DNA of 64,000 nt from Escherichia coli (GTDB lineage Bacteria; Pseudomonadota; Gammaproteobacteria; Enterobacterales; Enterobacteriaceae). Shown piece by piece: positions 46,252 to 57,191 of this stretch. Every line of letters begins with the position of its first letter. Position 1 is the first letter of the stretch. The translations under genes and the position numbers were made by a program. The notes under the pieces were generated by a model that had not been told where the DNA came from, did not search any database, and saw only the letters and a program-made list of their open reading frames with translations. The stretch lies in the NCBI RefSeq assembly GCF_036507355.1, contig NZ_AP027877.1; one strand, written 5' to 3'.

Positions 46252-46449
46252 AACTCACTCCCTGTTCTTTATCGTTATATAAAAGTTTATATATTGAATA
46301 TTTAGCGCGCTAACAATAGAGGGAGTCTACCCATTTTGGGTTAATAATTATTAATCCATATCAATAGAAGGGTATGAGTAATAAGGTGGGATTATGTTGT
46401 ATGTCCAAATCGCCGGATGTGTCGTATCCGGCGTGTAGTCGATAATGTA

Positions 46450-46755
46450 TTACTGCGGTTCGGCAGGCGCGCCATCCTGGGTAGACTGCGCGGGAGCAGA
46501 GACGTTACCGCTGGTGGTGCGGGTGTAGAGAATTTTATGCGTATCATTAGCGCAATGCCCGACGACCTGGGAATCAGGCTGATCAACCTGGTCATTGGGT
46601 ACAATACTTAACGTGAAGCTGCTTTCGGGTACGCCATTATTGATAATGCGCTGTGATATATCGCTTTGTATGCGCTCACAGGATCCCGGCGCGGCGAGTA
46701 CCGCGGGTGAGGCGAGGGCGAGCAGAAGCGCGGCACAGCAGGTTGAGAGTTTCAT
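46450..46755 (-). CDS. ynfD: DUF1161 small secreted protein YnfD
   Basis: 101 aa from MKLSTCCAALLLALASPAVLAA (signal peptide). Confidence 0.8.
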   Translation of the reverse strand: MKLSTCCAALLLALASPAVLAAPGSCERIQSDISQRIINNGVPESSFTLSIVPNDQVDQPDSQVVGHCANDTHKILYTRTTSGNVSAPAQSTQDGAPAEPQ

Positions 46756-46862
46756 CATAAGCTCCTTACGCGAAGATAACTTCTTTAAGCATAGCATTTA
46801 ACGTGTAAAGTACTGTATTTGCTACTATGATTGAGAATCATCTCTACTCTCTGGTGACTGAT

Positions 46863-47573
46863 GTGAAATACAAATTACTGCCATGCTTACTCGCGATATT
46901 ACTCACAGGATGTGACCGCACAGAGGTAACACTTTCATTTACTCCTGAGATGGCCAGTTTCTCTAATGAATTCGATTTTGATCCGCTGCGTGGTCCGGTA
47001 AAAGATTTCACTCAGACATTAATGGATGAGCAAGGTGAAGTGACGAAACGTGTTTCGGGGACTTTGTCGGAAGAAGGCTGTTTTGATTCACTCGAATTAC
47101 TGGATCTGGAAAATAATACCGTGGTCGCTCTGGTACTGGACGCCAATTATTACCGTGATGCCGAGACGCTGGAGAAGAGAGTACGTTTACAGGGAAAATG
47201 CCAGCTAGCGGAATTACCTTCCGCCGGGGTGAGTTGGGAAACCGATGATAATGGCTTCGTGATTAAAGCCAGCAGCAAACAAATGCAGATGGAATATCGC
47301 TATGATGATCAGGGTTATCCACTGGGTAAAACCACGAAAAGTAACGACAAAACATTATCTGTCAGCGCCACGCCATCAACGGACCCGATCAAAAAATTAG
47401 ATTACACAGCGGTTACTTTACTGAATAATCAACGAGTTGGTAATGTAAAACAGAGCTGTGAATATGACAGTCACGCCAATCCGGTGGACTGTCAGCTGAT
47501 CATTGTTGATGAAGGAGTAAAACCCGCCGTCGAACGGGTTTACACCATCAAAAATACGATCGATTATTATTAA
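46863..47573 (+). CDS. ynfC: UPF0257 lipoprotein YnfC (GTG start)
   Basis: 236 aa beginning (M)KYKLLPCLLAILLTGC with lipobox LTGC; start codon inferred as GTG at 46863. Confidence 0.8.
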   Translation: MKYKLLPCLLAILLTGCDRTEVTLSFTPEMASFSNEFDFDPLRGPVKDFTQTLMDEQGEVTKRVSGTLSEEGCFDSLELLDLENNTVVALVLDANYYRDAETLEKRVRLQGKCQLAELPSAGVSWETDDNGFVIKASSKQMQMEYRYDDQGYPLGKTTKSNDKTLSVSATPSTDPIKKLDYTAVTLLNNQRVGNVKQSCEYDSHANPVDCQLIIVDEGVKPAVERVYTIKNTIDYY

Positions 47574-47575
47574 TG

Positions 47576-48136
47576 CTATTGTGCGGTCGGCTTCAGGAGA
47601 GTCTGACCCGGTGTTTTGTGCTCTGCCAGATACTGATGCTGGAATATACACATGCGAATGGCATTACGATATTGACCATTAATAAAGAACTCGTGCATCA
47701 ATTCACCTTCAACCGAAAAGCCAAGCTTGCGGTAAATGTGAATCGCTTTTTCATTCTCTTTATCAACGATCAGATACAGCTTATAGAGATTGAGAACGGT
47801 GAAGCCATAGTCCATTGCTAATTTGGCGGCACGGGTTGCCAGACCTTTCCCCTGATACTCCGGGGAGATAATTATCTGAAATTCTGCGCGGCGATGAACA
47901 TGGTTAATTTCCACCAGCTCCACCAGACCGGCTTTTTCGCCGTCACATTCCACCACAAAGCGCCGTTCGCTCTGATCGTGAATATGCTTATCATACAGAT
48001 CAGAGAGTTCAACAAAGGCTTCGTAGGGTTCCTCAAACCAGTAACGCATCACACTGGCGTTATTGTCGAGTTGATGTACATAGCGTAAATCTTCACGCTC
48101 CAGCGGGCGTAGCTTAACACTGTGGGCGCTTGGCAT
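47576..48136 (-). CDS. speG: spermidine N1-acetyltransferase (GNAT family), apparently intact
   Basis: 186-aa uninterrupted ORF recognised as SpeG. Confidence 0.92.
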
Positions 48137-48170
48137 AACGTGTCCTTACATTCCTTAAATCAATAACAGG

Positions 48171-48512
48171 TTAGGGGGTAATAACGCGGCCAGTTCGACG
48201 GTCCAGGCAGCGCAAAGTATTGGGCTCCCAGTAGGCATTGATGTTGGCGCTTTGCTCACATTTATCGCGGTTATCAAAAGCGGCGTCGGCTTTATCCCAC
48301 TCTTTTTCAGTGCGTTTATTCACTTTCTGACGCAGATTGCGCGTGTCATTCCATTGCTCTTTTTCCATAGCGGCGTGCTGGCGGCTTTGTGCACTGTCGC
48401 CAGACTCAATCACCAGTTTGTTAGTTTCGGCATGAACAGTTGTGCTCAATGCCAGTGCGCAAGGCAGCAGAAAAGCGAGCAGGCCGATTCGTTTGCTGAG
48501 AGTGATTTTCAT
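48171..48512 (-). CDS. ynfB: UPF0482 secreted protein YnfB
   Basis: 113-aa ORF with signal peptide. Confidence 0.85.
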
Positions 48513-48646
48513 AATTCATTCCCTGTATGAATGATTAAAGGTGATTCTACACCATCCACTGCGAACGCAAAACGTACCAGGAGGGTGTTTATATTGATGA
48601 TATTATGTGGCCCTATAACTATACATGATGTCAATAAGTGACAAAG

Positions 48647-48973
48647 ATGATTAAAACAACGTTACTATTTTTTGCTACTGCGCTGTGTGAAATTATTGGA
48701 TGCTTTCTGCCCTGGTTGTGGTTAAAACGAAACGCCAGTATCTGGCTGTTGCTTCCGGCGGGGATTTCACTGGCGCTGTTTGTCTGGTTGTTAACGTTGC
48801 ATCCTGCGGCGAGTGGGCGTGTTTAGGCGGCTTATGGTGGCGTTTATGTCTGCACGGCGTTGATGTGGCTGCGCGTTGTGGATGGCGTGAAACTGACTCT
48901 TTATGACTGGACGGGTGCGTTGATTGCACTTTGCGGCATGTTGATCATTGTTGCGGGCTGGGGGCGCACGTAG
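48647..48973 (+). pseudogene. ynfA: UPF0060 membrane protein YnfA interrupted by an in-frame amber codon at 48824..48826
   Basis: ORF stops after ...HPAASGRV at TAG (gtt TAG gcg); the same frame then reads [48 protein letters not shown] to a TAG at 48971..48973, giving the expected 108 aa if the internal TAG were a sense codon. Confidence 0.8.
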
Positions 48974-49178
48974 GAACATAAATCCATTTTATCAATAAGA
49001 TACGAGGAAGTGTCAGCTGACAAAAGGTATTCTATTTCATCTTTTGTCAACCATTCACAGCGCAAATATACGCCTTTTTTTGTGATCACTCCGGCTTTTT
49101 TCGATCTTCATACTTGTATGGTAGTAGCTCAGTTGCGTAGATTTCATGCATCACGACAAGCGATGCAAGGAATCGAAT

Positions 49179-50393
49179 ATGAAGATCGTAAAGGCTGAAG
49201 TTTTTGTTACCTGTCCGGGGCGTAATTTCGTCACATTAAAAATCACCACTGAGGACGGTATTACGGGCCTTGGGGATGCCACCCTCAATGGACGTGAGCT
49301 TTCCGTGGCCTCTTATTTGCAGGATCACCTTTGTCCGCAGCTTATTGGTCGCGATGCGCACCGTATCGAAGATATCTGGCAGTTTTTCTATAAAGGTGCT
49401 TACTGGCGTCGCGGTCCGGTTACGATGTCGGCCATTTCAGCGGTTGATATGGCGCTGTGGGATATTAAAGCCAAAGCTGCCAACATGCCGCTTTACCAGT
49501 TACTCGGCGGCGCGTCTCGTGAAGGGGTGATGGTTTATTGCCATACCACCGGTCACAGTATTGATGAAGCTCTGGATGATTATGCCCGTCATCAGGAGCT
49601 GGGATTCAAAGCCATCCGCGTGCAGTGCGGAATCCCTGGTATGAAAACCACCTACGGCATGTCGAAAGGTAAAGGTCTGGCTTATGAACCCGCAACCAAA
49701 GGACAGTGGCCGGAAGAGCAGCTGTGGTCGACGGAGAAATACCTCGATTTCATGCCGAAATTGTTTGACGCGGTACGTAACAAGTTTGGTTTTAATGAAC
49801 ATTTGCTGCATGACATGCACCATCGCTTAACGCCTATTGAAGCGGCGCGCTTTGGTAAAAGCATTGAAGATTATCGCATGTTCTGGATGGAAGACCCGAC
49901 GCCTGCGGAAAACCAGGAATGCTTCCGTCTCATTCGCCAACATACCGTCACACCCATCGCAGTGGGTGAAGTCTTCAACAGCATCTGGGACTGCAAACAA
50001 CTGATTGAAGAGCAACTCATCGATTATATCCGCACCACGCTGACCCATGCAGGCGGAATTACCGGTATGCGCCGGATTGCCGATTTTGCTTCGCTGTATC
50101 AGGTACGTACTGGCTCGCACGGTCCTTCCGATTTGTCACCAGTCTGCATGGCTGCGGCGCTGCACTTTGATCTGTGGGTCCCCAATTTCGGTGTCCAGGA
50201 ATACATGGGTTATTCCGAACAAATGCTCGAAGTCTTCCCGCACAACTGGACTTTCGATAACGGCTATATGCATCCGGGAGACAAACCGGGTCTTGGTATC
50301 GAATTCGATGAAAAGCTGGCGGCGAAATATCCCTATGAACCTGCTTATCTACCAGTCGCACGTCTGGAAGATGGCACGCTGTGGAACTGGTAA
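49179..50393 (+). CDS. rspA: starvation-sensing protein RspA (enolase-superfamily mannonate dehydratase-like)
   Basis: 404 aa from [10 protein letters not shown]; enolase-superfamily fold. Confidence 0.92.
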
Positions 50394-50404
50394 GGAGTAA
50401 GATA

Positions 50405-51424
50405 ATGAAAAGCATATTAATTGAAAAACCGAATCAACTGGCGATTGTCGAACGTGAAATACCCACCCCGTCAGCGGGTGAAGTACGAGTAAAAGTGAAA
50501 CTTGCCGGAATTTGTGGTTCAGATAGCCATATTTATCGTGGGCATAATCCTTTTGCGAAATATCCGCGCGTCATTGGACATGAATTCTTTGGCGTCATTG
50601 ATGCGGTGGGTGAAGGTGTGGAAAGCGCCAGAGTCGGTGAACGTGTTGCTGTCGATCCGGTGGTCAGCTGTGGTCATTGCTATCCGTGCTCTATAGGTAA
50701 GCCGAACGTTTGTACGACACTCGCTGTATTAGGTGTGCACGTTGACGGTGGTTTCAGTGAATATGCTGTGGTTCCGGCAAAAAATGCGTGGAAAATTCCT
50801 GAAGCAGTGGCCGATCAATATGCGGTAATGATCGAACCTTTTACCATTGCGGCTAACGTAACCGGTCATGGTCAACCGACTGAAAATGATACCGTTCTGG
50901 TTTACGGTGCCGGTCCAATCGGCCTGACGATCGTTCAGGTATTAAAAGGCGTCTATAACGTTAAAAATGTGATTGTTGCCGATCGCATTGATGAACGACT
51001 GGAAAAAGCGAAAGAGAGCGGGGCTGACTGGGTGATTAATAACAGCCAGACACCGCTTGGCGAGATTTTCGCTGAAAAAGGCATCAAGCCGACATTAATT
51101 ATTGATGCGGCTTGTCATCCTTCTATCCTGAAAGAGGCCGTAACGCTGGCTTCTCCAGCGGCACGTATTGTATTGATGGGGTTCTCCAGTGAACCGTCTG
51201 AAGTGATTCAGCAAGGGATTACCGGAAAAGAACTCTCTATTTTCTCTTCACGCTTAAATGCAAATAAATTTCCGGTCGTTATCGACTGGTTAAGTAAAGG
51301 GTTAATTAAACCAGAAAAATTAATTAGCCATACGTTTGATGTCCAGCATGTTGCTGATGCCATTAGTTTATTTGAACAGGATCAAAAACATTGCTGCAAA
51401 GTCTTACTCACTTTTTCTGAATAA
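50405..51424 (+). CDS. rspB: zinc-dependent alcohol-dehydrogenase-family protein RspB
   Basis: 339 aa from MKSILIEKPN; zinc-binding GHEFFG and Rossmann GAGPIG motifs. Confidence 0.92.
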   Translation: MKSILIEKPNQLAIVEREIPTPSAGEVRVKVKLAGICGSDSHIYRGHNPFAKYPRVIGHEFFGVIDAVGEGVESARVGERVAVDPVVSCGHCYPCSIGKPNVCTTLAVLGVHVDGGFSEYAVVPAKNAWKIPEAVADQYAVMIEPFTIAANVTGHGQPTENDTVLVYGAGPIGLTIVQVLKGVYNVKNVIVADRIDERLEKAKESGADWVINNSQTPLGEIFAEKGIKPTLIIDAACHPSILKEAVTLASPAARIVLMGFSSEPSEVIQQGITGKELSIFSSRLNANKFPVVIDWLSKGLIKPEKLISHTFDVQHVADAISLFEQDQKHCCKVLLTFSE

Positions 51425-51470: not shown

Positions 51471-52289
51471 TTAAGCAGCCATCTGATGATATTTTTCCCT
51501 GAAGGCTGCCGGGGAGATATTCCCCAGACGAGAGTGACGACGCTGACGATTGTAGAAAATCTCAATGTATTCCCGTATTACTGAGATGGCTTCATCCCGG
51601 TTATTAAAACGATAGTGGCTCAGGCTCTCATTTTTCAGCGTTCCCCAGAAGCTTTCCATCGGAGCGTTGTCGTAACAGTTACCTTTACGCGACATTGATG
51701 TTTTCAGACCAAACTGCTCCTGTATGACCCGGTAATCGTATGCGCAGTACTGTGAACCTCGATCAGAGTGGTGGATTAGCCCGGCAGGTGGGCGCTGTCT
51801 CCTGAGCGCCATAAACAGGGCTTTACCTGTCAGCTCTTTTGTCATGCGCTCTCCCATGGCGTAGCCGACAATTTCGCACGTATAAACATCTTTGATGCCA
51901 GCGAGGTACAACCATCCCTCCTGTGTGGCAACATACGTCAGGTCCGCCACCCAGACCTGATTTGGTGCTGTAGGAGCGAACGTCTGGTTCAGCAGATTTG
52001 GCGCAACTGGCAGATTGTGGTTCGAGTTCGTAGTCGCTCTGAACTTGCGTTTCTGCTTACAGCGTAGCCTTAGCTCCTTACGAAGACGTGCCAGTCGGTC
52101 ACGACCAACGATGATGCCATTCTCTGCCAGCTCCGTCTGGAGCCGCCGGGTTCCATATGTTTCGCGAGTGCGGATATGTGCCACCTTAATCTCCAGTTTT
52201 AGCCGCTCATCACTTTGTTTTCTGTCTGAGGGTTCATGCTGTACCCAGTTGTAATAACCGCTCCTGGATACACCAAATACCTGACACAT
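51471..52289 (-). CDS. IS600 transposase OrfB (DDE integrase domain)
   Basis: 272-aa ORF recognised as IS600 OrfB; DDE-type catalytic core. Confidence 0.88.
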   Translation of the reverse strand: MCQVFGVSRSGYYNWVQHEPSDRKQSDERLKLEIKVAHIRTRETYGTRRLQTELAENGIIVGRDRLARLRKELRLRCKQKRKFRATTNSNHNLPVAPNLLNQTFAPTAPNQVWVADLTYVATQEGWLYLAGIKDVYTCEIVGYAMGERMTKELTGKALFMALRRQRPPAGLIHHSDRGSQYCAYDYRVIQEQFGLKTSMSRKGNCYDNAPMESFWGTLKNESLSHYRFNNRDEAISVIREYIEIFYNRQRRHSRLGNISPAAFREKYHQMAA

Positions 52290-52324
52290 CGCTTCAATGG
52301 GAAATTGTTGTCGCCATTGTTCGA

Positions 52325-52627
52325 TTAACGCGTATTTTTCAGCGACTCCTGTGCAAAATACGCTGTTGCTTTTTTTAATATATCTCGCTCAAGGCGAGCT
52401 TCATTTAACGCCTTACGCAGTTGCAGAATTTCAGATTCCAGTTCAGCCACCGTGCGGGAACCAGGAGTACCGAGCCCTTTTCTGGCGGCGGTAACCCATT
52501 GTCCTAAAGTGCCTTCAGGAAGAGATAATCGGGAAGCGCCTTCACTGATCGAAAGTTGATTTTCAAGAACCGTTCTGACAGCTTCGGCTTTGAACTCTTT
52601 AGAGTAACGTTGGGTTTTTCTGCTCAT
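52325..52627 (-). CDS. IS600 transposase OrfA (HTH)
   Basis: 100-aa ORF MSRKTQRYSKEFKAEAVRTV... recognised as IS600 OrfA; ends at the slippery heptamer. Confidence 0.88.
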   Translation of the reverse strand: MSRKTQRYSKEFKAEAVRTVLENQLSISEGASRLSLPEGTLGQWVTAARKGLGTPGSRTVAELESEILQLRKALNEARLERDILKKATAYFAQESLKNTR

Positions 52628-54386
52628 TATTAGCTCCTTCTGATGCCATTCTATTTCAGGAAGGAGTGTCCGTTAAACTCAGGCTACCTCATACCAATAA
52701 CGGCGAGTAAGTAGTACGCATCTTACCTCTTTTTTAGAGATAACCATTATGTCAATAGAAAAACACGAAAGAAGCACTAAGGATTTGGTGAAAGCAGCAG
52801 TATCGGGATGGCTGGGCACTGCGCTTGAATTTATGGATTTCAAGAGTCATGCGTGTTAACTATTTGATAAATATTAAATTAATTTTTCATTGCTTCGTTA
52901 TGGGGCATGGTTGGGGCAAACTCGCTTAACTGTGTATTTAACAAAGCTACCTGTGCATTATTGTTTTCAGACATCCATTTTCCGTATAGACCCTCCGCAT
53001 CTTGAGAGTGTTGGTGATAACGCCTGGATGGGAAAGAAATATGGACGGCTGAATAAAGATGCCTGGCGTGATGATTCGCGACAGAGATTTAAAGAAGCCT
53101 TTCGGGTGTTGAGGCCGCACGGCGTTCTGATTTTTTAATGGAATGAAACGCAAATACCGGTAAGCCAGATTCTGGCACTGACAGACAGAAAACCTGTTAT
53201 CTGTCAACGAACAGGGAAAAAACGATAAAACCCACTGGATTATTTTTATGAAAGAGGCATCCAGTGAGTAGATTCGTAAGGCTACAGATACGTATATCTG
53301 AATAATTAAATTCAGTTCTGTAAATAAAATTTAATCCTTAACCGGATGGATTTCTGCACCCTCAGAACATCAGGAGGCCGCCCGAAAGGGCGGTAGTGAA
53401 ATGCGAAAGTTCAAAATTATTATTGAAACGGGAATAGCTGGTGGAGATTTTGAGGATGTATTCGAAGTGGACGATGACGCAACACCTGAGGAAATTCATG
53501 ACGGAGCATAAGAAATTTTCTTTAACTACTGCAATTACTCATACCACGAAATAAAAGACGATGAGGAAGAACAAAGTGGCTGATTTTTGTTCAGCTAAAT
53601 ATAACATCAGTTTTGAAGAGCGGGATGAACTATTAATGGACTATGGTGAGTTACGCGGTGGAAGTGCTGCTGATGTCGAATCCTAGCGTGATGACTATGA
53701 AGCGGGAAAAACTCCGGTCGAAGCATATTGTGATGAGTGGGGCGATGAATGAGCGAGATTAATTATCAGGAAGGGCATGAAACGGCGGGGCAAGCAAAAC
53801 CAGTGGCATGGCGATATCGCTACGTGAAAAAAGGCGTTACGGACTTTCAGGGGAAGTAGTGGTCTGGTGACTGGAAATATGTACCGAAAAAAGAGGATTG
53901 TAACGACAGGCCGAACTATCAAATTCAGGCCTTATTCACTGCCTCACCAGTCCCAGTTACATCAGAAGAACTGGTTAAAGCTGTGCACTTTTATGAACAA
54001 CTAAAACGCGAAAATCCACCAACATCCGGCAACTAGATTAATGGATTAACTATGTCGGTTAAACGACCAGCCAACTGAAAAAGCGGAAACCTGATTACAG
54101 GTTGCCAGATAAGGCAATGAGCTACCTGGCGCGGAACGGACTGATAAGTATGGGGAATGTTTTACGATGAACCTTTAGACTAAAGAGTTTGTAACGCTAT
54201 GTAAGTGATTTTTTCTGGTTTAGATATTTATATGTCCGGCCAAATTGAGGTGTGTTTAAATGTAATTGCACATTGATTGTAGGAGGAATAATGAAAAACG
54301 CATTGCAGTTTTTGTTTGTTGCGTTCTGGTTGTTCGCATCATGTATGCCCATCATCTTCACAGCAAGGTGAATCGCCACGGATAAT

Positions 54387-55199
54387 CTAGACACTTCCGA
54401 GCCGTTGATAATACTGGTTTTCATATTCTGTCGGTGACATCTGATCGCTGGAACCATGCCGACGCTTACTGTTATAAAACATTTCGATGTAATCAAAAAT
54501 ATCGCTGCGGGCTTCTTCCCGCGTTCCGTAGATCTTTTTCTTTATCCGTTCGCGTTTCAACAACTGGAAAAAGCTTTCTGCAACCGCATTATCATGGCAG
54601 TTACCGCGACGGCTCATGCTGCCATCCAGGCCGTGTGATTTCAGGAACGACTGCCACTCATGGCTTGTGTACTGACTGCCCTGATCCGAATGAACCAGCA
54701 CCTGTTTTTGGGGATTACGGCGCCATACAGCCATCAGCAGTGCGTTCAGGACAATGTCCTTTGTCATCCGGGATTGCATGGACCAGCCGATAATTTTGCG
54801 TGAGAACAGATCAACAACCACGGCAAGATACAGCCAGCCTTCGTGGGTCCTGATGTAGGTTATGTCCGTTACCCAACGCTTATCCGGAGCATCCGGATTG
54901 AACTGTCGCTGGAGCCTGTTGGGCGACACGATACTGGCCTCGCCTTTACGTGCCCGCGGGCTCCGGTATCCGACCTGAGCCTTTATCCCGACACGTTTCA
55001 TCAGTCGCCAGACTCTGTTCACTCCGCACTGTTGCCCGCTGTCCCGCAGATCCAGATGGATTTTGCGATAACCATAGACGCATCCCGATTCCAGCCAGAA
55101 CTGTTTAATCTGCCCTGTCAGCCTCAGGTCTGCCTGATGGCGTTGTGAATGCGGCTGCTGAAGCCAGGCGTAAAAACCACTGGGATGAACATCCAGCAC
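54387..55199 (-). CDS. IS3-family transposase OrfB
   Basis: 270-aa ORF with DDE integrase core (…HSDQGSQYTS…, …GNCHDNAVAESFF…). Confidence 0.85.
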   Translation of the reverse strand: MLDVHPSGFYAWLQQPHSQRHQADLRLTGQIKQFWLESGCVYGYRKIHLDLRDSGQQCGVNRVWRLMKRVGIKAQVGYRSPRARKGEASIVSPNRLQRQFNPDAPDKRWVTDITYIRTHEGWLYLAVVVDLFSRKIIGWSMQSRMTKDIVLNALLMAVWRRNPQKQVLVHSDQGSQYTSHEWQSFLKSHGLDGSMSRRGNCHDNAVAESFFQLLKRERIKKKIYGTREEARSDIFDYIEMFYNSKRRHGSSDQMSPTEYENQYYQRLGSV

Positions 55200-55255
55200 C
55201 CGACAGAGCAGGCGAACAGGCCAGCAACAGGTGTTGTCACGGATAAAGGCGTACC

Positions 55256-55540
55256 TCAGTCGGACAGCTTTGCGAAGTACGCCGCGGCTTTTTTTAATAT
55301 GTCCCGTTCGTCGGTAACCCGCTTCAGCTCTTTCTGGAGACGGCGGATCTCGGCCTGAGCATCTGACTGTTCTTTATTAGCGGAAGAATCCGGACCGTAC
55401 TTCTTTATCCAGGCGTAAAGGCTGTGGGTGGTGATATCGAGACGTGTTGCAACGCTGGCAACAGAATAACCGCGATCAACAACCTGTTTGACTGCTTCAA
55501 TTTTAAACTCTTCGGGATAACGCTTACCGCTCATGGGCAC
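55256..55540 (-). CDS. IS3-family transposase OrfA
   Basis: 94-aa HTH ORF ending at the slippery heptamer. Confidence 0.85.
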   Translation of the reverse strand: MPMSGKRYPEEFKIEAVKQVVDRGYSVASVATRLDITTHSLYAWIKKYGPDSSANKEQSDAQAEIRRLQKELKRVTDERDILKKAAAYFAKLSD

Positions 55541-55760
55541 CTCTCTTTAAGCCATCTTAAATGACTCTGAGGTGTCTGTTAAACCCGTGGCGATTCATAA
55601 TTGATCATGGGTTGTCAGTTAAACTCGTGGCGATTTAAATAGACTAATTGGGAGTGCGTCCATTACTTATATCTTGTAATGTTAACTATCAGAAATTCTT
55701 GTAATGTTAACTATCAGAAATGATACAAAGATAATATGTCTTTAAAGAAAAGGCTGATGG

Positions 55761-55785
55761 CGAAAAGTGGCCCGATGAGGGCCAC
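55761..55785 (-). terminator. intrinsic terminator of flxA
   Basis: On the minus strand: hairpin GTGGCCC-TCATC-GGGCCAC followed by TTTTC. Confidence 0.7.
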
Positions 55786-55799
55786 AATACGGCTGTCAC

Positions 55800-56132
55800 T
55801 TAGACGTAAATATCAATGGTGCCAGCGGTATTTGTATCGTCTTTTTTCTCTTCTTTTTTATCAGGCTGAACTGTCGCGTCTTCATTCTTTTTCTCTGCCT
55901 GCTGCCTTAACAACTGCTCCAGTTGAGCCCAGAGGCTTTCAATTTGCTTCTGTACCAATGCAGCCATTTCTTTTTTCTGCTGTGTCGTCATCCCCTCTTC
56001 CGATGAGATTTTCCCAAGCTTTTCAGTCAGCACCTGAATTTGTCTTGTGATTTTGGCTATTTCTGATGTTCCTTCCGGGGCGGAGTTGTTTGAAATAACG
56101 GTTGAGGTATTTCCCTGAATTGTGACAGACAT
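55800..56132 (-). CDS. flxA: FliA-regulated prophage protein FlxA
   Basis: 110-aa ORF recognised as FlxA; preceded by a sigma28-type promoter and a GGAG ribosome-binding site. Confidence 0.8.
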   Translation of the reverse strand: MSVTIQGNTSTVISNNSAPEGTSEIAKITRQIQVLTEKLGKISSEEGMTTQQKKEMAALVQKQIESLWAQLEQLLRQQAEKKNEDATVQPDKKEEKKDDTNTAGTIDIYV

Positions 56133-56155
56133 AGATTTCTCCTTTTAAAAAAGCA

Positions 56156-56182
56156 CTATCGGCATGCACAAAAAAATCTTTA
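56156..56182 (-). promoter_or_regulatory. sigma28 (FliA) promoter of flxA
   Basis: Minus strand reads TAAAGATT-N11-GCCGATAG, matching consensus TAAAGTTT-N11-GCCGATAA, about 25 nt upstream of the flxA start. Confidence 0.75.
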
Positions 56183-56334
56183 ATCGTATTTCTTGTGTCA
56201 TTAATTGTTTGATGTTCAGATTGTTTTCCTCGCGGGCTGGCGCGCCTCAGAAAGTAAAGCTTGTTGACAGGGGTAAACGTTCGGCAATAATTTTCTGCCG
56301 CATGCGGGTGTTGCATAAAACGTGTTACGTTCCT

Positions 56335-56640
56335 TTATCGACAGGTCAGGTCACCGCTCACCCGCCGACGAGAAAGCAACACTGACATGCTAAAGCAAAA
56401 AATAGATGAATAAGTTGAGTTGTGCATATGTAGCCTGACCGTCACAAAGTATATGGTGTCTGTACCAGTAAGATGATGGCCGGACTCTTTAAAAACGAGC
56501 TGACCTGCACAATACAGGATGGACTTAGCAATGGCTGCTCCTGGCACAAAGCGGACAGTGATCACCGTTCTTACGACTACTTTCTGACTTCCTTCGTGAC
56601 TTGCCCTAAGCATGTTGTAGTGCGATACTTGTAATGACAT
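56335..56640 (-). CDS. ydfV: prophage protein of unknown function (YdfV-like)
   Basis: 101-aa ORF between flxA and relB; identity rests on size and position only. Confidence 0.4.
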   Translation of the reverse strand: MSLQVSHYNMLRASHEGSQKVVVRTVITVRFVPGAAIAKSILYCAGQLVFKESGHHLTGTDTIYFVTVRLHMHNSTYSSIFCFSMSVLLSRRRVSGDLTCR

Positions 56641-56653
56641 TTGTAATTACAAG
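56628..56653. promoter_or_regulatory. relBE operator (inverted TTGTAAT repeats)
   Basis: cttgtaatgacatttgtaattacaag about 12 bp upstream of the relB ATG. Confidence 0.7.
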
Positions 56654-56664
56654 AGGTGTAAGAC

Positions 56665-56904
56665 ATGGGTAGCATTAACCTGCGTATTGACGATGAACTT
56701 AAAGCGCGTTCTTACGCCGCGCTTGAAAAAATGGGTGTAACTCCTTCTGAAGCGCTTCGTCTCATGCTCGAGTATATCGCTGACAATGAACGCTTGCCGT
56801 TCAAACAGACACTCCTGAGTGATGAAGATGCTGAACTTGTGGAGATAGTGAAAGAACGGCTTCGTAATCCTAAGCCAGTACGTGTGACGCTGGATGAACT
56901 CTGA
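56665..56904 (+). CDS. relB: RelB antitoxin
   Basis: 79-aa ORF recognised as RelB; stop overlaps the relE start. Confidence 0.92.
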   Translation: MGSINLRIDDELKARSYAALEKMGVTPSEALRLMLEYIADNERLPFKQTLLSDEDAELVEIVKERLRNPKPVRVTLDEL

Positions 56905-57191
56905 TGGCGTATTTTCTGGATTTTGACGAGCGGGCACTAAAGGAATGGCGAAAGCTGGGCTCGACGGTACGTGAACAGTTGAAAAAGAAGCTGGTTGAAG
57001 TACTTGAGTCACCCCGGATTGAAGCAAACAAGCTCCGTGGTATGCCTGATTGTTACAAGATTAAGCTCCGGTCTTCAGGCTATCGCCTTGTATACCAGGT
57101 TATAGACGAGAAAGTTGTCGTTTTCGTGATTTCTGTTGGGAAAAGAGAACGCTCGGAAGTATATAGCGAGGCGGTCAAACGCATTCTCTGA
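56904..57191 (+). CDS. relE: RelE mRNA interferase toxin
   Basis: 95-aa ORF recognised as RelE. Confidence 0.92.
   Translation: MAYFLDFDERALKEWRKLGSTVREQLKKKLVEVLESPRIEANKLRGMPDCYKIKLRSSGYRLVYQVIDEKVVVFVISVGKRERSEVYSEAVKRIL

What the first reader, a model, noticed from the sequence alone, without database searches (positions are those of the whole stretch)
56156..56182. Near-consensus sigma28 promoter drives flxA inside the prophage
TAAAGATT-N11-GCCGATAG matches the flagellar class 3 promoter consensus, indicating a prophage gene under host flagellar-regulon control.
Basis: partly seen in the sequence, partly recalled or inferred. Interest (0 to 1): 0.3.

Follow-up and report, generated by a model that had tools for sequence, protein, structure and literature searches.

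The report
Known FliA promoter of prophage flxA
This is the already published flagellar-sigma-factor (FliA, sigma-28) promoter of flxA, a gene of the cryptic Qin prophage of E. coli. It is base-for-base identical to the K-12 promoter tested by experiment, so the finding is correct but ordinary.

Summary
On the minus strand at 56182..56156 the sequence reads TAAAGATT-N11-GCCGATAG. It has 2 mismatches to the class 3 consensus TAAAGTTT-N11-GCCGATAA and is the only match of that quality in the 64 kb window (0.02 expected by chance).

Its -10 block ends 23 nt upstream of the ATG of a 110-aa ORF (55800..56132, minus strand). That ORF is FlxA (Pfam PF14282). It lies in a Qin-type prophage remnant alongside relBE, hokD, rem and ydfU.

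The 841 bp from ydfV to the flxA stop are identical to E. coli K-12 MG1655. Published work on that identical sequence shows:
- a FliA ChIP-seq peak listed with this very 28-mer;
- flxA RNA falling from 280 to 2 in a fliA deletion (Fitzgerald 2014);
- a 28-fold drop in a fliA deletion and an 8-fold rise on induction (Zhao 2007);
- binding by the purified sigma-28 holoenzyme (Shimada 2017);
- the original description (Ide and Kutsukake 1997).

FlxA-like genes in about 25 genera of Enterobacterales are mostly chromosomal and lie next to a yfeR-like gene. Of 63 such loci, 56 carry a sigma-28 motif at the same upstream position, against about 0.8 expected. FliA control therefore looks like a family trait rather than something that arose within Qin. 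FlxA's function remains unknown.

The parts
56175..56182 (-). -35 block of the sigma-28 promoter, TAAAGATT
   Evidence: Sequence. One mismatch to TAAAGTTT. The flgMN class 3 promoter listed in Fitzgerald 2014 Table 2 has the same octamer.
56164..56174 (-). 11-nt spacer, tttttgtgcat
   Evidence: The canonical sigma-28 spacing is 11 nt. Among the FlxA-family promoters, 42 of 56 also have a spacer of 11.
56156..56163 (-). -10 block of the sigma-28 promoter, GCCGATAG
   Evidence: One mismatch to GCCGATAA, at the last position. The core CCGATA is invariant in all 56 family promoters, and the last position varies.
56133..56155 (-). Short leader between the -10 block and the ATG, with Shine-Dalgarno AAGGAG at 56144..56139. 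The transcription start is inferred at about 56149..56147.
   Evidence: Sequence. The start site is an inference from the usual 7-8 nt distance downstream of a sigma-28 -10 block. It was not mapped here.
55800..56132 (-). flxA coding sequence: 110 aa plus stop, FlxA family PF14282
   Evidence: ORF. Pfam match. 100% identical to the annotated flxA of ATCC 8739 and MG1655. The AlphaFold model is a helical hairpin with disordered ends.
55763..55785 (-). Terminator-like hairpin GUGGCCC-ucauc-GGGCCAC followed by UUUU, 15 nt after the flxA stop
   Evidence: RNA fold gives -18.1 kcal/mol with z = -3.2 against shuffles. The consensus scan did not call it because only 4 U follow the stem. Its function is inferred.

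Best explanation
This is flxAp, the FliA (sigma-28, RpoF) dependent promoter of flxA in a Qin-type cryptic prophage of E. coli. RNA polymerase carrying FliA recognises TAAAGATT and GCCGATAG, which are 11 nt apart. It starts transcription a few bases downstream of the -10 block. The product is a short-leader, probably monocistronic flxA mRNA with a strong ribosome-binding site, ending at a hairpin just after the stop codon. FliA is itself made under FlhDC control and is held inactive by FlgM until the hook-basal body is complete. flxA is therefore expressed with the late (class 3) flagellar genes, although published work says it is dispensable for motility. Shown: the sequence, its position, its identity to the experimentally characterised K-12 promoter, and conservation of the motif across the FlxA family. 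Inferred: the exact start site, termination at the hairpin, and activity in this particular strain.
For: Motif and statistics. Gene identity. Exact 841-bp identity to MG1655, with the promoter at NC_000913.3 1646355-1646381 inside the annotated Qin prophage. The 241-bp promoter region is at least 99% identical in 1203 of 1205 E. coli records that hold it. Literature on the identical sequence: a FliA ChIP-seq peak (FAT score 16) with this 28-mer, and RNA of 280 against 2 in the fliA deletion; -28.4-fold and +8.2-fold in Zhao 2007; a sigma-28 holoenzyme SELEX peak upstream of flxA; Ide and Kutsukake 1997 cited as the original demonstration. Comparative evidence: 10 of 11 distinct distant homologues (26-66% identity) have a sigma-28 motif ending 23-32 nt before the ATG (combined p = 2e-19). 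In one genome per species, 56 of 63 loci carry the motif. Controls gave 0.77 expected from shuffles, 1 on the opposite strand, and 0 of 51 and 0 of 63 in flanking regions.
Against: Nothing in the data contradicts it. Four limits remain. No experiment was done on this strain, and fliA and flhDC lie outside the window, so activity here is assumed. The Ide and Kutsukake paper could not be read, so its primer-extension start site is not cited. The terminator has only a 4-U tail. A strong sigma-70-like site (11 of 12) lies nearby, but on the opposite strand, so it does not compete for flxA.
Confidence: 0.95

Rival explanations
1. The motif is a chance match, and flxA is transcribed by sigma-70 or by read-through from ydfV upstream on the same strand.
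For: At 3 or fewer mismatches a window of this size yields 0.49 matches by chance. ydfV lies upstream on the same strand.
Against: At the observed 2 mismatches only 0.02 matches are expected. No sigma-70-like site on the flxA strand was found between ydfV and flxA. On the identical K-12 sequence flxA RNA falls from 280 to 2 without FliA, and FliA binds there in vivo and in vitro. The motif is conserved upstream of distant homologues that lack ydfV.
Confidence: 0.02
2. The promoter arose within the Qin prophage, which recruited host flagellar control for a phage purpose. On this view it was not inherited with the gene.
For: In E. coli the gene is known only from Qin-type prophages and a related phage, PhiR42_1. 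The Qin-clade -35 block (TAAAGATT) differs from the TCAAG typical of the chromosomal clade.
Against: FlxA-like genes at a syntenic chromosomal site carry the same promoter type at the same distance in 56 of 63 species. At that site a convergent yfeR-like gene lies downstream in 53 of 64 loci, and gltX lies upstream in 30 of 64. So do homologues of 45-66% identity in plasmid-like and other contexts. Only 1 of 50,697 phage records encodes FlxA. The simplest reading is that gene and promoter moved together.
Confidence: 0.1
3. The main product of the promoter is not FlxA protein but an RNA with another role. Candidates are a regulatory RNA, or FliA-driven read-through into the IS3-family transposase gene that lies downstream in the same orientation in this window.
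For: The IS orfA (55540..55256) is on the same strand, about 260 nt beyond the flxA stop. The hairpin has a weak U-tail. UTR-derived sRNAs dependent on sigma-28 exist elsewhere in E. coli (the title and abstract of PMC10578931, listed).
Against: The coding sequence and its Shine-Dalgarno are conserved as a protein family across genera, with 6 columns conserved in at least 90% of 46 aligned sequences. The IS junction is absent from K-12 and ATCC 8739, so any read-through is strain-specific and secondary. No read-through data exist.
Confidence: 0.05

Closest known systems
flxAp, the FliA-dependent promoter of flxA (b1566) in the Qin cryptic prophage of E. coli K-12 (Ide and Kutsukake 1997; Fitzgerald et al. 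2014)
   Same: Identical sequence. The 27-mer, the 241-bp promoter region and the whole 841-bp ydfV-flxA stretch match MG1655 exactly. The flanking genes are the same: ydfV, relB, relE, hokD, rem and ydfU.
   Different: Only the surroundings differ. In this window an IS3-family element (54370..55586) replaces the region downstream of flxA, where ATCC 8739 has ydfW and a truncated ISNCY-family transposase gene. IS600 and host rspAB lie where the left arm of the prophage would be. A 25-nt stretch downstream of flxA is tandemly duplicated, and the ungapped comparison with K-12 breaks down there.
Canonical class 3 flagellar promoters of E. coli and Salmonella (consensus TAAAGTTT-N11-GCCGATAA), for example flgMN, tar and fliC
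   Same: Two-block architecture, 11-nt spacer and CCGATA core. The -35 octamer TAAAGATT is the one listed for flgMN. Expression depends on FliA.
   Different: The last base of the -10 block is G instead of A. The gene it drives is not needed for motility, according to the title of Ide and Kutsukake 1997, and has no known flagellar role.
Promoters of the chromosomal FlxA-like genes (PF14282) beside a yfeR-like gene in Enterobacter, Citrobacter, Pantoea, Erwinia, Yersinia and other genera
   Same: Homologous gene (22-39% identity). The sigma-28 motif is typically 26-35 nt from the ATG. GCCGATA is nearly invariant, and the spacer is 11 or 12 nt.
   Different: The -35 block is usually TCAAG rather than TAAAG. 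The location is chromosomal and syntenic rather than in a prophage. None of these promoters has been tested by experiment, as far as the searched literature shows.

Membership tests
Sigma-28 (FliA) dependent promoter | -35 block resembling TAAAGTTT | tested here: met
   TAAAGATT, 7 of 8.
Sigma-28 (FliA) dependent promoter | -10 block resembling GCCGATAA with an intact CGA core | tested here: met
   GCCGATAG, 7 of 8. The mismatch is at the last position, which is also variable in the family.
Sigma-28 (FliA) dependent promoter | Spacer of 11 nt (plus or minus 1) between the blocks | tested here: met
   Exactly 11 nt.
Sigma-28 (FliA) dependent promoter | Correct orientation and a plausible distance upstream of a gene | tested here: met
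   Same strand as flxA. The -10 block ends 23 nt before the ATG, with a Shine-Dalgarno in between.
Sigma-28 (FliA) dependent promoter | FliA holoenzyme binds the site | not testable with these tools
   Not tested on this strain. Published for the identical K-12 sequence: ChIP-seq and genomic SELEX. Sequence identity shown.
Sigma-28 (FliA) dependent promoter | Transcription is lost without FliA | not testable with these tools
   Published for the identical K-12 sequence: 280 against 2 and -28.4-fold.
Class 3 flagellar operon (functional part of the flagellum or chemotaxis system) | The gene product is needed for flagellar assembly, rotation or chemotaxis | not testable with these tools
   The title of Ide and Kutsukake 1997 says flxA is 'dispensable for motility development'. 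I therefore file it as a FliA-regulon member, not as a flagellar gene.
Qin-type lambdoid cryptic prophage | Collinear with the annotated Qin genes (ydfV, relBE, hokD, rem, ydfU, antiterminator, csp genes, lysis genes) | tested here: met
   Window 55587..57000 is 99.9% identical to the ATCC 8739 prophage region. That region continues with these genes. The exact match to MG1655 lies inside the feature 'cryptic prophage Qin'. The left arm (integrase, dicA, dicB) is missing here.
FlxA protein family (Pfam PF14282) | Score above the Pfam gathering threshold | tested here: met
   53.8 bits against a cut-off of 26.3, covering residues 7-101.

The most novel reading that the evidence does not exclude
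FlxA-like proteins are an old, nearly universal but unstudied member of the sigma-28 regulon across Enterobacterales. They are normally encoded at a fixed chromosomal site beside a yfeR-like gene. On this reading the Qin prophage copy in E. coli is a mobilised offshoot that kept its ancestral class 3 promoter. The protein is a small helical hairpin with disordered ends. It is made only once the hook-basal body is complete, and it would then have a real, still unknown role tied to late flagellar assembly or the motile state, possibly as an export substrate or a regulator.
Probability: 0.5. Interest if true: 0.4.

Novelty: already known. Interest (0 to 1): 0.15.

Why it matters
The finding itself adds nothing new. 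flxAp is a standard example of a FliA promoter in front of a non-flagellar gene, and the sequence here is identical to K-12. It serves as a positive control showing that the first-stage reader can recognise sigma-28 promoters by eye.

The modest value added here is comparative. The same promoter type precedes FlxA-like genes in about 25 genera. This argues that the link between FliA and FlxA is under selection, and that FlxA deserves a functional study. It also shifts the reading from 'a prophage gene under host control' to 'a regulon member carried by a prophage'.

Tried and rejected
1. Shigella host. IS600 and IS-mediated deletions suggested a Shigella host, where the flagellar regulon is usually dead. 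This was rejected because exact look-ups of YnfE, YnfF and YdfU return only E. coli names.
2. Exact IS-flxA junction. No complete E. coli genome covers 80% or more of window 53800..56300, so the strain was not identified.
3. Family-wide locus search. A 7-sequence alignment, A2, worked.
4. Function of FlxA.
   - NCBIfam gave no match.
   - A profile search of PDB sequences gave only coiled-coil noise.
   - The AlphaFold model has pLDDT 65.
   - Foldseek against PDB gave no match at E of 0.001 or better, only generic helical hairpins.
   No function can be assigned.
5. Prior description of the family-wide promoter. No paper in the library holds 'FlxA-like'. The two follow-up FliA preprints do not mention flxA, yfeR or gltX. 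Subscription journals are not covered.
6. Terminator. The consensus terminator scan found nothing after flxA. Folding did find a hairpin.

Full report
**Observation.** The reverse complement of window 56156..56182 reads TAAAGATT-tttttgtgcat-GCCGATAG. Against TAAAGTTT-N11-GCCGATAA it has two mismatches. It is the only match in the 64-kb window at 2 or fewer mismatches, where shuffles expect 0.02. At 3 or fewer mismatches it is still the only match, but 0.49 are expected, so the sequence alone is suggestive rather than decisive. Position strengthens it. The -10 block ends 23 nt upstream of the ATG (56132) of a 110-aa ORF on the same strand (55800..56132), and AAGGAG lies 6 nt before the ATG. With the position constraint, none of 2000 shuffles of the upstream 200 nt reached the observed score.

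**What the gene and locus are.**
- The ORF matches Pfam FlxA (PF14282, 53.8 bits against a cut-off of 26.3).
- Its neighbours are ydfV, relB, relE and hokD.
- A 1.1-kb stretch around it is 100% identical to E. coli ATCC 8739 and many other strains, where the genes are annotated flxA, ydfV and relB. The wider ATCC 8739 region is a lambdoid prophage with dicA/dicB, rem, ydfU, an antiterminator, csp genes, lysis genes and terminase.
- In MG1655 the same genes lie inside the feature 'cryptic prophage Qin'.
- Window 55800..56640 (minus strand) matches MG1655 exactly over 841 bp. This places the promoter at NC_000913.3 1646355-1646381.
- The 241-bp promoter region occurs in 1202 of 5426 complete E. 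coli genomes and is at least 99% identical in 1203 of 1205 records.
- The host of the window is E. coli, judged by exact protein look-ups.

**How this prophage copy differs.**
- An IS3-family element (54370..55586) replaces the region downstream of flxA. In ATCC 8739 that region holds ydfW and a truncated ISNCY-family transposase gene.
- A short piece of the prophage's early region survives at 52984..54369.
- IS600 (51471..52627) then abuts host rspB and rspA.
- The integrase and dicA/dicB arm is therefore gone.

**What is already known.**
- Fitzgerald et al. 2014 (PMC4183435) list in Table 2 a FliA ChIP-seq site with the motif TAAAGATTTTTTTGTGCATGCCGATAGT assigned to flxA. The fold-above-threshold score is 16. 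Normalised expression is 280 in motile MG1655 and 2 (significant) in the fliA deletion. They call flxA one of the 'well-characterized FliA-dependent promoters'.
- Their reference 31 is Ide and Kutsukake 1997, Gene 199:19-23. Its title says expression depends on FliA and that the gene is dispensable for motility development.
- Zhao et al. 2007 (PMC1935009) report -28.4-fold in a fliA deletion and +8.2-fold five minutes after sigma-F induction.
- Shimada et al. 2017 (PMC5493296) find a sigma-28 holoenzyme SELEX peak between ydfV and flxA.

Because the DNA here is identical, these results carry over directly.

**Mechanism.**
- Shown: the two-block promoter with 11-nt spacing, and FliA binding and FliA dependence on the identical sequence.
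- From established knowledge of the enterobacterial flagellar hierarchy: FlhDC activates fliA, and FlgM holds FliA inactive until the hook-basal body exports FlgM. A promoter of this kind therefore fires with the late flagellar genes.
- Inferred: transcription starts about 7-8 nt after the -10 block (around 56149..56147), giving a leader of about 16 nt.
- Inferred: the mRNA ends at a hairpin GUGGCCC-ucauc-GGGCCAC-UUUU (55785..55763), which folds at -18.1 kcal/mol with z = -3.2. The hairpin has only four U, and the consensus scan did not call it.
- No sigma-70-like site on the flxA strand was found between ydfV and flxA.

A full-library phmmer search found distant FlxA relatives down to about 30% identity. 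They share a conserved coiled-coil core and a C-terminal (I/V)D(I/V)Y(I/V) motif.

I fetched the DNA around ten of them. Most lie in a chromosomal block ordered gltX, FlxA-like, yfeR-like LysR gene, SBF-family (yfeH-like) gene, a small PF12843 gene, ligA. The source names include Enterobacter roggenkampii, Pantoea and [Erwinia] mediterraneensis. One lies next to a TraI relaxase.

Ten of eleven distinct homologues have a sigma-28 motif ending 23-32 nt before the ATG. Per-locus shuffle p values run from 0.0005 to 0.0115, and the Fisher combined p is 2e-19.

A scan of one genome per species returned 64 loci from about 25 genera: Enterobacter, Citrobacter, Lelliottia, Leclercia, Buttiauxella, Kluyvera, Kosakonia, Cedecea, Hafnia, Pantoea, Erwinia, Mixta, Winslowiella, Yersinia (including Y. 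pestis), Serratia and others.
- Of the 63 loci with enough upstream sequence, 56 have a motif with at most 4 mismatches in total and at most 1 in the -10 block.
- Controls gave 0.77 expected from shuffles, 1 on the reverse complement, 0 of 51 further upstream and 0 of 63 downstream.
- CCGATA is invariant in all 56. The -35 block is mostly TCAAG. The spacer is 11 nt in 42 loci and 12 nt in 12.
- The -10 block typically ends 26-35 nt before the conserved MTTI-type start.
- A yfeR-like gene lies downstream and convergent in 53 of 64 loci, and gltX lies within 1.5 kb upstream in 30 of 64.
- Only one of 50,697 phage records encodes FlxA, and it is a Qin-like phage from ECOR13.

FliA control is therefore a trait of the gene family. 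The Qin copy most probably carried its promoter with it rather than evolving one inside the prophage. I found no description of this in the searchable literature, but subscription journals are not covered, so I do not claim priority.

**Function of FlxA.** It stays unknown.
- The AlphaFold model built from 46 sequences is a two-helix hairpin (residues 20-44 and 50-87) with disordered ends. Mean pLDDT is 65.
- Foldseek against PDB gives no match at E of 0.001 or better.
- A profile search of PDB sequences gives only coiled-coil noise.
- NCBIfam has no model.

**Verdict.** The novelty class is already known, and interest is low (0.15). The only part that goes beyond the literature I could read is the family-wide conservation of the sigma-28 promoter. 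That is a modest lead toward the function of a small, uncharacterised regulon member.

Noticed in passing
window 54370..55586: An IS3-family insertion sequence (orfA 55540..55256, orfB 55199..54387, both minus strand) lies about 210 nt downstream of the flxA stop, in the same orientation. It replaces the stretch that in ATCC 8739 holds a truncated ISNCY-family transposase gene and ydfW. FliA-driven read-through into the transposase gene is conceivable but was not tested. No complete E. coli genome in the collection covers 80% or more of window 53800..56300, the stretch that contains this element and flxA.
   Followed up: partly
window 51471..52627 and 46300..51424: IS600 (orfA of 100 aa and orfB of 272 aa) sits between host rspB/rspA and a surviving fragment of the prophage early region (52984..54369). 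The integrase, exonuclease, dicB and dicA arm of the Qin-type prophage is missing. This looks like an IS-mediated deletion.
   Followed up: partly
window 55672..55720 (minus strand): The 24-nt sequence TTTCTGATAGTTAACATTACAAGA occurs twice in tandem (period 25) downstream of flxA. The ungapped comparison with MG1655 breaks down at 55696, so the copy number probably differs from K-12.
   Followed up: no
window 56264..56291 (plus strand): A strong sigma-70-like site, TTGACA-16 nt-AATAAT (11 of 12), lies between the flxA promoter and ydfV. It points away from flxA, antisense to ydfV and toward relB. It is a consensus match only, and no function was checked.
   Followed up: no
window 55573..55595 and 55613..55635 (minus strand): Two near-identical 23-nt stretches, AATCGCCACG(A/G)GTTTAAC(T/A)GACA, lie 40 nt apart at the boundary of the IS3-family element. 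They may be the inverted-repeat end of the IS plus a remnant of an earlier, related IS end.
   Followed up: no
L003 2501..2821 (metagenome contig Ga0496122_0006212): A FlxA homologue with 66% identity sits just downstream of a TraI relaxase gene and an ScsC-like gene. This is a plasmid-like context. It still has a sigma-28-like motif (TTAAGTTT-N12-ACCGATAT) 24 nt before the ATG. The gene-plus-promoter unit therefore appears in prophage, plasmid and chromosome.
   Followed up: partly
L020 488..862 and L055: A few family members lack a convincing motif. One is P0153 (about 30% identity), on a 970-bp contig. Another is in Enterobacter wuhouensis, where the best motif is 158 nt from an unlikely start codon. 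These may be real losses or mis-set start codons.
   Followed up: no
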